Of a stretch of 61,018 nucleotides of DNA, positions 15,708 to 21,600 are shown in pieces. The position numbers and the translations under genes are program-made. The notes under the pieces were generated by a model, which had not been told where the DNA came from, searched no databases, and saw nothing but the letters and a program-made list of their open reading frames with translations. The stretch's first letter is position 1, and every line of letters starts with the position of its first letter. Source of the stretch: Chara braunii (taxonomy: Eukaryota; Plantae; Charophyceae); the NCBI GenBank assembly GCA_003427395.1, contig BFEA01000023.1, positions 1,072,042 to 1,133,059 of the forward strand, given 5' to 3'.

Positions 15708-18260
15708 CTACAGTAAGATTGATCTGAAGTATAGCACCACCAGATTCAGGTGGTCGTATAGGATCAGTATAAGATGATGTTTCGAACCAGGTACATGCAC
15801 TATGAATTCGCTGTGATGTCTTTTGGCCTAACTAACGTCCCAACAACCTTCGAATGAGCTATCATTGTCTATCAATGAACTATTTCGTGAGTGGTTGGAT
15901 CAGTTCATAGTAGTGTATCCCGATGATATTTTGATTTTTAACAAGAGGCTCTCGGGACACAAGAAACACCTGCATCTGGTATTGCAGAAACAAAGAAATA
16001 TGGGTTCGCAAAGGCAGAGGTCCTATATTTAAGACACATTGTTAATGAGGATGAACTAAAGCAGGAAGAAAAGAAAATTATTGTAATCGAGGATTGGTAA
16101 ACCAACAAATCTAACCGACTTGCGCTCCTTTTGAGGATTAGCCAACTATTATAGGAAGTTCATTATGAATGTTTCTAGCATAGTTGCCCCTATGAGGAGA
16201 TTACTGAAGAAGGGTACAATTTGGCTATGGCACAATAGCTGTGAGTTCTCATTTAAGAAGTTGAAATATGAGTAGACTCGCTACCCTGTGCTGAAAATAT
16301 CAGACCCCTCACTTCCTTTTATTGTAAGTTCAACTGATGCAAGTCAGTATGGGATTGGGGTTGTATTTCAACAAAATTATGGGAGGGGATACAAACCTAT
16401 TGAATTCCTGTCTTGTTATCTCCGTTTTGACAAAGTGGTTAATTCCACCTAATATGCGATAAAGTTGTATGTTTTTTTGCAAGCGTTCTTGACCTGGAAA
16501 CATTATATCTTGGGCAGACACTTGAAGGTCTACTCAGACCATGAAACCCTGAAGTGGCTCAATACTCAACTTCGTTTGACATAAACGTTAGCAAGATACT
16601 CTGCTGTCATTGACAACTATGACTTTGAACCGAAGAGTATCAAGGGTAAGTAGAATGTGGTGATCGACGCTCCTCTAGAAAAACTATTTTTTTCGGAACA
16701 ATAAGTACCTACCTCAGGCCAGACATATGAAACGAATTGAAGGATAACATTAGAGAAGGATATGCTACTGAAAAGTCCTGGCAGATCATCATACAATCTC
16801 TGAGAATTAATCATGAACGTTGTCAGTGCGAATACCCTTACAAGGGTATCCGCCCTGGTCTTTGCAAACGACAGGAAACAATTTAGTATAAAGTTTAAAG
16901 TATGTCGTATTAGGCACGACCGCGTATGTAATTTACGTCGACTAGATGGTTGACTAGAGTAACGAGTGTGTGGGCACGCAAGTTTGAGGCGCGCGTGATT
17001 TTCACTTCTTTTGGTTACATTGACAGACGTGGCGTGAATTTTGGTCAGCATATGTCATCTTTGTTTTGATTGAACTGATTAGCCTATGAGTACCCTGTTC
17101 ATTGGTTCCGCGAGGTACGATGGACAGTTCAGTGAGCCGGTACAGACTTACGCAAAAATTTAGATGATGGGTCCTGATGTATTTGGCTAAGGACGGGTAG
17201 CCGCGACACTACAGGGTAGGACGACGTGAGTTTGGGTGGTCCCTTGTGCAAGTGTGGGTCGGGAAGTGGCATGGGGCGTTTTCTTGGACCCGAAAGTCAT
17301 GCGCTATCTCTTTATTAAGAGATTTGAGCCCACTGGTACCAGGGTTGGGCTTAGCCCTATTGGTTACGGTATCGGACTTATGAGGTAAAAGTACGGGGAT
17401 CGAGGCCAGCAAGCGGCGGTATGGGAGCAGCGGAGCACCGGAAGAGTTGAGGGGTTGAGGGTCCCGCGGGACTATCCCCACTGTGTTTCGCTGGGGGAGT
17501 CCGATCGCGGACCCACGTTACAGGGCCAAGGGAAAGGAGAAGTGAGTCCCTCGCCCCGGCCCCCTTAGCTTTCTCATGTTTTTCTTTTTGCGGTAGGTCT
17601 TACAATTTTTAATATTTGTCTCTTTTCGTTCCCACACTTTCCGACCAGGCCGAGTGCGGGATTAAGGACCGGCCGCGAACCCAAGAGAGCCCAGCGCAGT
17701 GGACTCAGTAATCGGGTTCCTGCATGAGCGGGACGCAGGCAGAATTGCCTTACCCGGCTTGTCTTGGGATAGATATAGGCCAAGGAGGTAAGTCCGTTTG
17801 CATATAGGGGAGAGGCGTCGGCCGGAGAACAGCGGCGATACCGGCTACACACCATCTTTTCCACAGGACCGCCCCCGTCTCAGCCCCAAAAGTTCGGAGT
17901 CGGACGCCTGCAAATTGTCATCATGATAGCATCAGGGCCGCATCACCTAGGCCCACGTTACGGCTTGAGCAGGCTAGGCACGTCCCCCTACTAGTCGCCG
18001 TGGGGAGGGGAGCGCAGCGACACTAATGTGCAAGTCGCACGATGGACTTGGGCATAAGGGCAAAGGACCAATCGAACCACCGGATAATTGGTTCCTCATA
18101 ACCTCTCCCTCGGGATAGCGGAGGGTGCCGACCGACTAGTTTGCACTACGACAGTTGGGTCGTCGAGGGACCAAATCTCGGCGTGAATCAGTGCCAGGTG
18201 CGTTCAGAAACAAGGGTTGTGTGACCTCTCGGTAGCTCCGGGCGGCACTACCGTGGGCAA

Positions 18261-18330
18261 GTCCTTCGGGGCATCTGTTAAATTTCGAAGGATACAAGGA
18301 AGGTTAACGTGGCCCGCGCGAGCAGGCGGT
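18261..18330 (+). ncRNA. Degenerate U6 snRNA-derived copy (upstream tandem unit, 5' LTR)
   Basis: GTCCTTCGGGGCATCTGTTAAATTTCGAAGGATACAAGGAAGGTTAACGTGGCCC aligns to the U6 5' half. ACAGAGA box and AGC triad are mutated. Lies 344 bp upstream of the better copy. Confidence 0.75.
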
Positions 18331-18604
18331 ATCTACGAATGGGAGGCACGTAGCGGAGCGGAGCTGGGCGACAGTATGAGGTGCAAGGGAGTAAGTGAAC
18401 CCGACCCGTTGTCAGAGCCGGGTACATTCAGTAAAGGATAAGGCTGGAGATGACGGGGGAGTTGCACGGTCTTAGGCGCAACGACAAAAAGTACTATAGA
18501 ATTGGGGAGAGGGGGGACTGAATCCAGGCGAAATGTAGGGCTCGGTGCCTTTGGAAAGACAAGTTGCGCACCCCCTTGGCTCCGCGGGGCACTGCTTGAG
18601 GTAA

Positions 18605-18695
18605 GTCCTTCGGGACATCCGTTAAAAATTGAAACGATACAGAGAAGATTAGCATGGCCCCTGCGCAAGGACGACACACATAAAATACGAGGAAA
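18605..18695 (+). ncRNA. U6: U6 snRNA-derived sequence in 5' LTR (near full length, 3' end replaced)
   Basis: GTCCTTCGGGACATCCGTTAAAAATTGAAACGATACAGAGAAGATTAGCATGGCCCCTGCGCAAGGACGACACACATAAAATACGAG: plant-type U6 with 5' UUCG stem-loop, ACAGAGA box, AGC triad and ISL. Confidence 0.93.
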
Positions 18696-21600
18696 GCTCG
18701 ACGGTCGGGCGTTTTCCTTCTGTTCGATAGTCAAATGTCGTCGGACCGTGAGGTGTCGGACGACCAGAGTGACGCCAGCGGAAAGAGTGATGGTGAGGGA
18801 ACGAAGGGTGGTAGCGAAGGAAGGAAGAAGGGGGCAGACTGAACCCGAACGGGATCCCCGCTAAGATTCGTGCGAGGCAAAGTGAGCCGTGGCAAAACCG
18901 AACTATGGCAGGAGCGGAGGGCGCTTAGACGGACTGTGTTACCAGGAAGTAGGAGAACCCGGTCGGTTTCCTGCGCTGAGTGCGTGAAGGCGGCTGGAGA
19001 AGGGAAATGACGGGTATTGCCGGCAACGAGTGGAACGCAGTCGGTGAAGGGGGAGGGGCAGCAAAGAAGTAAGAGGAGGAATGAATCCGAGCGCGCTTCT
19101 ACGCTAGATTCATTAGGAGAAAGGAGGAGGGAAAACAGACGTGAGTTGCTCATCTCTGGGTGGAATCAGACGAGAAGAGATTCGTGTTAGGGGTTTTTGA
19201 GGTAGGCGAGTTGAATGGCCACGTTAGTTCTAGCTCTAGATTAGCGAGCTAAGTGTTAGTAAGGAGGGGTGGTCCGCGGAGTCATTCGGCGGTGGGTATA
19301 GCCGGAAGTGGGAATTGAATACCTCGGTCGGTTCCTATTGAAATCGAGCGAGCAGAAGGATTGAAATAAGGGCTTTGAGCGATTGCGAGCACGATGGCAA
19401 AGAGAGAATTTATGTTTGGGGTGCCGTTCTAGCAGTAAGGAAGTCTAAAGCTGCGTGGATAAGCAAATGGAGTGCATCTTTTCGTATACCTGAGGAAGGT
19501 TCATCGCATTTTGGCATGCGTAGGAGGGAATGAAATTTGAAGCAGTGAAAGTCGGGGAAAGTGCGATTCGAAGGTTTTGGGGCAGGGTGAGTGTGATAGT
19601 GGAGTTAGTTCTGATTTTAGATTGTTAGGATAAGAGTTAGCACGAAATAGTACGACGCGGAGCGTTGAAGAGAAGATGACCGGGAACAGCTATGAAGAAG
19701 GCAATGTATCTTCCCTAGGAATAGTGAAAGATTCACTCAGTTTGCACATCTTCCTGATGGAACAGCGTGAGGCCGGCCGCGAGGTTAGGCACTTACCTTT
19801 TTAAACAGAGTGATGAGCGGGCGGTGCATCCATTCTTGTTCGTTGGAAGGATGAGAGCGACGCGGCGCAGGCAGCAGGCAGAGTAGGATACGTACCTAGC
19901 CGGGATTAAGGGGAAGATTTTTCCGCCCTTGTGTATCAGAAAAAGGAGGGTGGATCTGGCCAACTGTCTGCAGTAGATCATTCGACTTGCTCATTCTCTC
20001 GGTGAGGTGGCAACGTATATTCCTATGATCTAACGGAAGGTTCACTCTCTCCTTGCTCCACTAATGATAGTGTGAGGCTCGTCATCGTCGTTTTCATTTC
20101 CCGTGTTCATCACTCTGTAGATTGGAAGGGGCCGCAACAGTGAGTAGCACTATGCATACTAGGGCTAGCTGCTGTGAGTATTGGGATAACCTTTGCTACT
20201 GCCGAGGATGTTGCGGTAGCAGGTGTTGCTGTTGACGATACTGTGGGTGCCTTCAGAGGGAAGGGAGGGATATAGTTTTTTTTTTTTTTTTTAGCCTCCT
20301 TTTGCCACTCTTCTGCCGTGCACGTTGCTATTCGATTGTTGTATCCCACTCCTTGCCCCAATCGTGCCTGCAACGACGGCGAACTGGAACGCTTGATATA
20401 GGTTGTCTCCTCCTCACTAACTTACTGCTGGGATACCTGCATATTGCTGATGGCCGCAGCATAGTACTGCTAGCTACTGCGGGTAGTGGCGGCCGTCTAT
20501 TGATTGGGCTCGGATGCAGCTTCTCTTAGACTGCGAATTGTGAACAGTGGAACCTCGGACTGGTTGTTGATGCTGCAACACCTGCGAGCCGATAAGGCTG
20601 AACTGATGTGTATTGCGGTGGTTGCTGCGGACTGCACATCCACTAGTGGCTGTTACGGCAGACGACGCACGGACTGTTGCTGTAGACTAGGCGTTGCTGC
20701 TACTCCTGGCCACCCACAGGCCGCGTCCGACTGGTGGAAGCCGCATATTGTTGGCGCCTACGGTGGACTACTGTTGACTGGGTATGGACTACAGCAGCAT
20801 ATTGGACCAGACTGTAGCGGGCTGCTGCCGACGCTGGCGTTTGCAGTTGATCGATTGAGTTATACTACTCTTGCTCGCCATCTGCTCTTAGTTCATCGCT
20901 GTGTAATTTGCCGTGAGGACTGCGTTTTCTATCACAGCGATCGCCGGGTTTACTACAAAACGCTGCGCTGGTTGACTGCAGATTGCTGCCCCATTTGTGA
21001 ACTGCGGTCATTTGAAGACTGTAAACAGGCTGCTGTTGCTAGGGGACCGCTATTACAGTTATTGATTATCACTAAGTATTGCTACTTGCATCTAAGGACT
21101 GTTACGGATTGTGAGGCGGCTGCGATCGGGATGTGGGGAGATGTTGAGCTTTGAGGAGGCGATTAGACTTAACAAGTCTGGGGAGTCAGCAGAAACTTGA
21201 CTCCAGTGGGTTGACCCAGAGAGCTGACCAAGTTGTCACATTGGCTGCCATTGCATGGCCCTCAGGAGCATCAAGGAAACAAAGCCCTCTCCAGTGAGCT
21301 TGAGAGCACCCCTCTTGTTTCTGAGAGTCTCAAACCTTCTTCCTCTACCCTTCTTACTCTAAGTCTGGTCCTGATCTGAGGGGAAGGCGGCAGGCGGGAT
21401 TGCAACCTGTAGGACCGCACCAAGACTCTGTGGGGAGTCCACCCACTGACTGCGGGAGCTCTGCCGGAGCCTAGGCGAGACTCTGGAGGCAGGGAATTGA
21501 CAGGTAACCTTTGCGTTTCCCTCAATAAACCCTGATTATAACCCCTATCTGTATCTCCCATTGCATCACTGACTGAATATATGATGTGTAACCTTACTTT

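What the first reader, a model, noticed from the sequence alone, without database searches (positions are those of the whole stretch)
18165..18720. Giant LTR retrotransposon carries tandem U6 snRNA-derived cassettes in both LTRs
Seen: a near-complete plant-type U6 (5' UUCG stem-loop, ACAGAGA box, AGC triad, ISL) at 18605 and 43797, plus a degenerate paralog exactly 344 bp upstream in each LTR. About 95 bp of upstream sequence is duplicated with it. Presence at the same position in both LTRs implies it was replicated as part of the element, not inserted afterwards. The native U6 3' end is replaced by a hairpin (GAGGAAAGCTCGAC-GGTCGGGCGTTTTCCTT) whose T4 run would end a Pol III transcript of about 110 nt. 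Established: Cassandra TRIMs carry 5S rRNA in their LTRs, and mammalian U6-L1 chimeras exist. I know of no autonomous Gypsy family with U6 in its LTR. Inference: an element-encoded U6 variant could serve as a Pol III cassette, a spliceosome or U4/Lsm decoy, or host-RNA mimicry that protects the element from silencing.
Basis: partly seen in the sequence, partly recalled or inferred. Interest (0 to 1): 0.92.

Follow-up and report, generated by a model that had tools for sequence, protein, structure and literature searches.

The report
Giant algal retrotransposons carry U6 RNA
A giant jumping gene of a stonewort alga carries two copies of the U6 splicing RNA in each of its long terminal repeats, two distant relatives carry U6 pieces at the matching place, and one copy has stayed so close to working U6 that it is likely kept for a use that is still untested.

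Summary
A 28.9-kb Chara-type Gypsy element (16821-50741, 4-bp TSD) has a near-complete U6 (Rfam 77 and 74 bits) in both LTRs, with a decayed paralog 344 bp upstream.

New here: a nested 4,990-bp solo LTR of a distant family carries the 3' half of U6, and a metagenome record (L004) with a 67%-identical LTR block carries the 5' half. Both lie in sense, downstream of the same block, with unalignable flanks.

Since the tandem duplication, the intact copy has 2 differences at 73 U6-invariant sites, the paralog 19, and their upstream paralogs differ at 26 of 84. Simple neutral decay is rejected (P about 0.0005 to 0.009).

The Pol III cassette reading gets no support: no USE, TATA or B box, and a hairpin of z -1.7. 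No oligo-dT reads lie on this subfamily, but that library type is a weak test.

Best reading (0.45): U6 was captured during reverse transcription and is selected as an RNA module in the LTR transcript. Main rival (0.3): repeated neutral re-copying from co-packaged U6. Four literature searches found no U6-bearing LTR family.

The parts
16817..16820 (+). left 4-bp target-site duplication (NCGN type)
   Evidence: matches 50742-50745; the interrupted old pol frame continues across the element
16821..30541 (+). 5' LTR, TG...CA, 8,727 bp without the nested insertion
   Evidence: in run X1 summed depth jumps at 16821 and loose ends fall there
17336..17589 (+). conserved LTR block, shared with L004 (67% over 261 nt) and weakly with the nested LTR; lies upstream of the U6 piece in all three
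   Evidence: high summed depth
18145..18260 (+). upstream part of cassette B (paralog of 18493-18604)
18261..18320 (+). U6B, decayed U6 copy; 5' stem-loop kept, internal stem-loop lost
   Evidence: 19 of 73 invariant sites changed in both LTRs
18493..18604 (+). upstream part of cassette A; no USE, TATA or B box; ends in a splice-donor-like motif that overlaps the first U6 bases
18605..18706 (+). U6A, near-complete U6 copy
   Evidence: 77.3 bits; 2 of 73 invariant sites changed in both LTRs, plus a 1-nt insertion
18689..18719 (+). 3' hairpin: degenerate native 3' end plus fold-back extension, T4 at 18712-18715
25032..30021 (-). nested 4,990-bp solo LTR of a distant family, TG...CA, 4-bp TSD (NCGN type)
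29186..29245 (-). U6 3' half (about nt 44-102, native-like 3' end and T-run) in the nested LTR, sense to that LTR, at +778
30544..30561 (+). primer-binding site (tRNA-Asp type; assignment recalled, not tested)
   Evidence: sequence
30844..33924 (+). gag-like and protease ORFs, interrupted by stops
34528..37182 (+). RT, RNase H and integrase ORFs (Gypsy order), frameshifted; integrase remnants run on past 37182
37772..40497 (+). extra sense ORF region after the integrase, broken, ending in a CCHC zinc knuckle
   Evidence: 37 of 37 hits labelled Chara braunii
42370..50741 (+). 3' LTR, lacking the first 349 bp; 5.6% diverged from the 5' LTR
43453..43513 (+). U6B in the 3' LTR
43797..43898 (+). 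U6A in the 3' LTR
   Evidence: 74 bits
50742..50745 (+). right target-site duplication

Best explanation
U6-derived sequence is an inherited part of the LTR front end in this Chara giant Gypsy group, likely captured when reverse transcriptase switched onto co-packaged U6 RNA, and likely kept by selection as an RNA module inside the element's own transcript rather than as a separate U6 gene. Shown: U6 in both LTRs; U6 pieces in sense, downstream of the same block, in two distant LTRs; a tandem duplication after which one copy stayed near U6 while the other decayed. Inferred: the capture route, selection, and that the region is transcribed. Predicted and untested: the module recruits factors that normally handle U6 (Gag nucleocapsid or an export receptor) and so helps export or packaging of the genomic RNA.
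For: 1. Relative rate. At 73 sites invariant in four intact U6 genes, differences shared by both LTRs number 2 for A and 19 for B (Fisher P 7e-5). Leaving out the 22 positions fixed by my search motif gives 1 vs 18 of 52 (P 2e-5). The upstream paralogs differ at 26 of 84 sites; half of that rate predicts about 11 of 73 for A (binomial P 5e-4; 0.002 to 0.009 on the 52 sites). A's 3' end changed more than its core (4 of 11 vs 2 of 73, P 0.002).
2. Recurrence. The nested solo LTR, which I did not select for U6, has U6 nt 44-102 with 4 of 39 invariant sites changed. L004 has the LTR block (E 7e-24) and U6 nt 1-54. Flanks do not align between the three lineages. Rough chance levels are 0.2% or less for the nested LTR and 1% or less for L004.
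3. About 160 rough copy-equivalents (36 contigs) of other diverged U6-like loci exist in DNA run X1, against about 7 for this subfamily.
4. Retroviruses package U6: one copy per RSV virion, Exportin-5-dependent for MLV (PMC4752605, passages). Sense orientation in 3 of 3 lineages fits template switching.
5. No TSD flush with U6A: the only repeat of 7 nt or more lies away from the junctions.
Against: 1. The lineages keep different parts (whole, 5' half, 3' half), so no single U6 function is common to all.
2. The upstream divergence has no outgroup. If nearly all of it fell on B's branch, the whole A cassette is slow and a recent capture could explain it.
3. Zero reads over 17545-18259 and 18325-18620 in 3 of 3 oligo-dT runs (6-13% of each run read).
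4. U6-like reads from other loci are strand-biased, 32 to 4. In a usual stranded library that means antisense, not sense, RNA.
5. L004 was found through its U6 motif. Outside the motif, its advantage over the LTR block is weak (3 of 24 vs 87 of 261, P 0.04); so is the nested copy's (P 0.04). The block homology in the nested LTR is weak (nhmmer E 1e-4; pairwise 12 and 2 of 300 shuffles).
6. Only three lineages were seen, and whether the 160 other loci are in LTRs is not shown.
7. Both A copies change the bulged U of the internal stem-loop (site 67).
Confidence: 0.45

Rival explanations
1. Neutral passenger with refresh: after one or several captures, reverse transcriptase now and then re-copies the segment from co-packaged host U6 by homology. 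The piece stays U6-like and in place without serving the element.
For: Explains why different lineages keep different halves, the sense orientation and the fixed position. It also explains the A/B asymmetry, since a diverged copy can no longer be refreshed. No promoter, and no reads on this subfamily. After insertion the core decays at the LTR rate (4 of 86 vs 5.6%, P 1.0), although any dead copy would do so.
Against: Needs a double switch within 100 nt, recent in all three lineages, while the flanks turned over beyond alignment. By my own rough reasoning (inference, no measured rates) that is unlikely without selection.
Confidence: 0.3
2. Stand-alone Pol III cassette: the LTR makes a 110-nt U6 variant ending at the T4, acting as a U4 or LSm decoy.
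For: U6A starts at U6 nt 1, and about 115 nt of upstream sequence was duplicated with it. A T4 lies at +108. The two LTR differences in the hairpin hit both sides of one pair, so the pair was probably Watson-Crick in the active element. B-box-like motifs lie near the U6 pieces of L004 (-107) and the nested LTR.
Against: No USE, TATA or B box near U6A or U6B, while 2 of 4 reference genes have a TATA-like motif at -30. Upstream sequences are unrelated between lineages. The nested copy lacks the U6 start. Hairpin z -1.7.
Confidence: 0.12
3. Recent capture of host DNA holding a tandem pair (one working U6 gene, one host pseudogene) with their upstream regions; all passive since.
For: Explains the A/B asymmetry and the duplicated upstream sequence without selection in the element.
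Against: Does not explain the two other lineages. A's 3' end is far more changed than its core. Depth over the B upstream equals that of the neighbouring subfamily sequence (94 vs 73-98), so no extra host copies are evident, although one or two could not be resolved.
Confidence: 0.08
4. Ordinary LINE-made U6 retrocopies that landed in LTRs independently.
For: U6 retrocopies and chimeras are common products of LINEs (PMC4476161, passages). A LINE remnant lies in the window, and a 49-nt poly(A) lies about 100 nt after the nested piece.
Against: No TSD at the junctions. The same orientation and LTR zone in 3 of 3 lineages is improbable by chance. It does not explain the slow rate of A.
Confidence: 0.05

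Closest known systems
Cassandra TRIMs (5S rRNA in LTRs; PMC10853983 abstract and passages, PMC10886601 passages)
   Same: Host small-RNA sequence inside both LTRs that stays close to the host gene over time
   Different: Cassandra is 565-860 bp, non-coding, and uses the internal 5S Pol III promoter. This element is 28.9 kb with gag-pol, and carries U6, whose land-plant promoter is external (recalled); no promoter was found here.
Helenus and Ajax, 'TRIMp3' (PMC10886601, passages)
   Same: Small-RNA-derived sequence in LTRs
   Different: Short, non-autonomous, tRNA- or 5S-derived. The paper argues that autonomous partners must use Pol II, and the words 'snRNA' and 'small nuclear' do not occur in it.
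U6/L1 chimeras and U6 retrocopies (PMC4476161, passages)
   Same: U6 joined to a retroelement by template switching
   Different: LINE-made, one-off insertions flanked by TSDs; not an inherited part of an LTR
SINEU, SINEs with snRNA-derived heads (PMC4494074, search listing only)
   Same: snRNA-derived sequence propagated as part of a mobile element
   Different: Non-LTR and short; here the U6 piece lies inside an LTR
Phygy and other plant non-chromovirus Ty3/Gypsy elements (PMC6317226, passages and section 9)
   Same: PR-RT-RH-INT order; both TSDs here fit the NCGN preference reported for Phygy; extra ORF, large LTRs and tandem repeats as in OTA elements
   Different: Phygy elements are short. 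No tree was built.

Membership tests
Ty3/Gypsy LTR retrotransposon | LTRs with TG...CA, TSD, PBS | tested here: met
   the 3' LTR lacks its first 349 bp and the PPT
Ty3/Gypsy LTR retrotransposon | PR-RT-RH-INT order | tested here: met
Phygy clade | NCGN target preference | tested here: met
   2 of 2 TSDs; feature from PMC6317226
Phygy clade | short element, polyprotein filling the internal part | tested here: not met
   28.9 kb with an extra ORF
Phygy clade | RT/RH/INT monophyly with reference Phygy | not testable with these tools
   no reference set held
TRIMp3 (Cassandra, Helenus, Ajax) | small-RNA-derived sequence in both LTRs | tested here: met
TRIMp3 (Cassandra, Helenus, Ajax) | short, non-coding element | tested here: not met
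TRIMp3 (Cassandra, Helenus, Ajax) | internal Pol III promoter from tRNA or 5S | tested here: not met
   no tRNA, no 5S, no B box near U6A
Functional U6 gene | 5' stem-loop, ACAGAGA box, AGC triad, internal stem-loop | tested here: met
   U6A only, with the bulged-U site changed
Functional U6 gene | native 3' end followed by a T-run | tested here: not met
   77 bits vs 103-108 for intact genes
Functional U6 gene | upstream USE and TATA | tested here: inconclusive
   none found with recalled land-plant motifs; Chara's own promoter not available
Functional U6 gene | small Pol III transcript | not testable with these tools
LINE-made U6 retrocopy | TSD flanking U6, with or without a poly(A) or LINE tail | tested here: not met

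The most novel reading that the evidence does not exclude
One of the most abundant retrotransposon groups of Chara (roughly 3x10^4 LTR ends by summed depth) has domesticated U6 snRNA as a standing, selected module of its LTRs. It would be the first coding LTR retrotransposon lineage that uses a spliceosomal RNA mimic, sense or antisense, to manipulate export, packaging or splicing of its RNA.
Probability: 0.35. Interest if true: 0.88.

Novelty: new variant of a known kind. Interest (0 to 1): 0.7.

Why it matters
Small-RNA-bearing LTRs are described, in the papers I could read, only in tiny non-coding elements that borrow an internal Pol III promoter. U6 kept in the LTRs of giant coding Gypsy elements cannot be explained that way. 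It points either to a new use of the spliceosome's catalytic RNA by a transposon, or to recurrent recombination between an LTR element and co-packaged U6, which has been proposed for retroviruses (title seen in a reference list only). One assembly-wide intersection would test it. It also warns that many U6 annotations in Chara may be LTR pieces.

Tried and rejected
- No whole genome is held, and the L004 record is not searchable, so no genome-wide intersection was possible.
- LTR-start and LTR-block motifs: 0 hits in viral contigs; the LTR-start motif also 0 in metagenome contigs. U6 5' motif: 0 hits in viral contigs, one chance bacterial hit in genome contigs (L006). RT in viral contigs: one 11-residue match, ignored.
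- No RNA holder was listed among indexed runs; this is no evidence either way.
- LTR1 vs LTR2 divergence in the U6 core (4 of 86 vs 5.6%) was rejected as a test of selection, since both copies are dead after insertion.
- Depth dips at 18325-18620 were rejected as evidence, because the tool drops some records.
- No third tandem cassette and no tRNA gene near any copy.
- The splice-donor-like motif at the U6A start is not shared by L004, so it was not built into the model.
- Rfam miRNA hits are microsatellite or low-complexity artefacts.
- Searches of earlier findings by place and by sequence were blank.
- A search for the yeast U80C allele found nothing, so the effect of the bulged-U change is left open.
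- The Chara genome paper and Giles et al. 2004 are not held. Their text and supplements, and Repbase entries, could already mention this family.
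Full report
1. Observation. Rfam finds U6 at 18605-18706 (77.3 bits) and 43797-43898 (74 bits), and a third hit at 29187-29245 on the minus strand (43.4 bits, gathering score 44). 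Decayed paralogs start at 18261 and 43453, each 344 bp upstream. A profile of four intact U6 genes finds them at E 8e-11 and 4e-9. About 115 nt of upstream sequence is duplicated with them; sequence downstream of the U6 parts is not.

2. The element. It spans 16821-50741. A 4-bp TSD flanks it, and the old pol frame that it interrupts continues across the junction. It measures 33,921 bp, or 28,927 bp without a nested insertion. The 5' LTR is 8,727 bp. The 3' LTR (42370-50741) lacks the first 349 bp and has no PPT at its junction, which I infer to be a later deletion. The LTRs differ by 5.6%. Pfam gives PR, RT, RH and INT in Gypsy order; the frames are broken. The three best RT hits, and 37 of 37 hits to the extra ORF after the integrase, are labelled Chara braunii. 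Both TSDs in the window fit the NCGN preference reported for Phygy (PMC6317226, passages), but no tree was built.

3. U6 in other lineages. The insertion at 25032-30021 is a 4,990-bp solo LTR with related termini and its own TSD. It carries U6 nt 44-102 in sense at +778, with a native-like 3' end and T-run, and differs at 4 of 39 invariant sites. It keeps the bulged U and the 3' end that U6A has lost, so it was not copied from U6A. A metagenome scan with the U6 5' motif gave 5 loci. Four are intact U6 genes (103-108 bits) and served as references. The fifth, L004, holds a 67%-identical homolog of the LTR block 17336-17589 (E 7e-24) followed on the same strand by U6 nt 1-54. The nested LTR has a weak trace of the same block 110 nt before its U6 piece (E 1e-4; pairwise support weak). 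Flanks of the U6 pieces do not align between lineages (the best was A vs L004 downstream, 12 of 500 shuffles). Rough chance levels are 0.2% or less for the nested LTR and 1% or less for L004. L004 was selected through its U6 motif; the nested LTR was not.

4. Copy context (laid on 16700-18620 at 85% likeness; summed contig depth is only a rough guide). Unique flank depth in X1 is about 13. The LTR start reaches 428,888 (about 3x10^4 copy-equivalents), and two internal blocks about 22,000 (about 1,700). The stretch 17545-18259 reaches 40-98 (3 to 7 copies, the close subfamily). The 5' part of U6B spikes to 2,104 (36 contigs, about 160 copy-equivalents). RNA reads at that spike have loose ends that continue as U6-like sequence with about 8 extra letters after the ACAGAGA box, and upstream ends unlike this LTR; the contigs' own loose ends there were not shown. 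So a repeated, diverged U6-like family exists, and whether it lies in LTRs is not shown. Record 8 is a third copy of 18295-18620 (5 differences from LTR1, whereas LTR2 has 18). Records with an intact U6 core are probably dropped by the tool, so the share of LTRs carrying U6 cannot be read from this.

5. Rate test. At 73 sites invariant in the four reference genes (U6 nt 1-74), differences shared by both LTRs number 2 for A (plus a 1-nt insertion) and 19 for B (Fisher P 7e-5). Without the 22 positions fixed by the search motif the counts are 1 and 18 of 52 (P 2e-5). The upstream paralogs differ at 26 of 84 sites, and half that rate makes A's count unlikely (P 5e-4; 0.002 to 0.009 on 52 sites). 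A's 3' end has changed more than its core (P 0.002), and B's internal stem-loop more than its 5' part (12 of 28 vs 7 of 45, P 0.014). One origin followed by neutral decay is therefore rejected. The caveats are that the upstream has no outgroup and that the references are not Chara genes. After insertion the core decays at the LTR rate (4 of 86), as any dead copy would.

6. Pol III cassette. No USE, TATA or B box (recalled motifs) lies within -300 to +400 of U6A or U6B, apart from one two-mismatch B-box-like site at -193 of B, which is at background frequency. The hairpin is real but modest (z -1.7). Its left arm is the degenerate native 3' end, and its two LTR differences hit one pair. Three oligo-dT runs (6-13% of each read) gave no reads on 17545-18259 or 18325-18620. 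The 36 reads at 18261-18296 come from other loci and are strand-biased 32 to 4, possibly antisense.

7. Mechanism. Shown: inheritance in the LTR, recurrence in three lineages, and slow evolution of A. From the literature: retroviruses package U6, and MLV packaging needs Exportin-5 (PMC4752605, passages). U6 is the main snRNA in LINE template-switch chimeras (PMC4476161, passages). Inferred: capture by template switching in the particle, which predicts the sense orientation, followed by selection on the core as a module in the LTR transcript (0.45). The partner is unknown; export or packaging is my prediction. The rivals are neutral refresh from co-packaged U6 (0.3), a Pol III cassette (0.12), a captured host tandem (0.08) and LINE retrocopies (0.05). 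That different lineages keep different halves is the strongest point against one selected function.

8. Known systems and novelty. It resembles Cassandra, Helenus and Ajax in holding small-RNA sequence in LTRs, but fails their size, coding and promoter features (PMC10886601 passages; PMC10853983 abstract and passages; PMC13570524 passages). Four searches found no U6-bearing LTR family: 0 papers; 1, on mammals; 7; 2; two searches were judged from listings only. Three Chara searches (listings only) showed no paper on this family. The Chara genome paper and Repbase were not available. An earlier scan note (e1-7509316, another genome) described a TSD-flanked U6 retrocopy; that signature is absent here.

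9. Verdict. The feature is real and recurs in three LTR lineages, and simple neutral decay does not account for it. Its function is unproven. New variant of a known kind, interest 0.7.

Noticed in passing
window 16821-16878: The LTR start has a summed contig depth of about 430,000 against about 13 for unique DNA, so this LTR group may be among the most abundant repeats of the genome.
   Followed up: partly
window 17461-17478, 42661-42678; L004 478-495: A strongly conserved small hairpin in the LTR block resembles the U6 5' stem-loop and the bases after it; either chance, or a motif that favoured capture.
   Followed up: no
window 18599-18607 and 17786-17794: A near-perfect splice-donor-like motif overlaps the first bases of U6A, and the same 11-mer occurs 800 nt upstream without U6.
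   Followed up: partly
reads laid at window 18261-18296: Polyadenylated reads from other U6-like loci share an insertion of about 8 nt after the ACAGAGA box and are strand-biased 32:4. In X5 the upstream loose end (5 reads, agreement 0.64) resembles the U6 3' part, which hints at head-to-tail copies.
   Followed up: partly
L004 1098-1658: Five minus-strand splice-donor motifs against two on the plus strand in the whole record: possibly a spliced antisense transcript running toward U6.
   Followed up: no
window 29035-29180 (-): After the nested U6 piece come a T-run, a reverse B-box-like hairpin and a 49-nt poly(A) without a clear TSD.
   Followed up: partly
window 37772-40497: An extra sense ORF region after the integrase ends in a CCHC zinc knuckle; all 37 homologs found are labelled Chara braunii.
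   Followed up: partly
window 40500-42369: Unique sequence joins directly to +350 of the 3' LTR, and the PPT is missing. A third copy is closer to LTR1 (5 differences) than LTR2 is (18) over 18295-18620, so conversion or recombination may have occurred.
   Followed up: partly
window 22990-23770 and 48180-48965: A tandem array of about 124-bp units with TATA-like motifs, followed by a TA microsatellite near 24441; a possible Pol II promoter zone, which would place U6 in U3.
   Followed up: no
window 3368-5744 (-), 8-1941 (-), 15700-16820 with 50746 onward: A decayed LINE (endonuclease and RT) and two older Gypsy pol remnants; the element sits inside one of the latter.
   Followed up: no
window 10554-10837 / 15174-15448, 58727-58966, 60693-60994: Inverted-repeat elements with microsatellite arms; the one at 58727-58966 gives spurious miRNA hits.
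   Followed up: no
L001, L003, L005: Intact U6 genes lie next to U2 and 5S (L001), a U1-like hit (L003) or U2 (L005) in unidentified eukaryotes.
   Followed up: no
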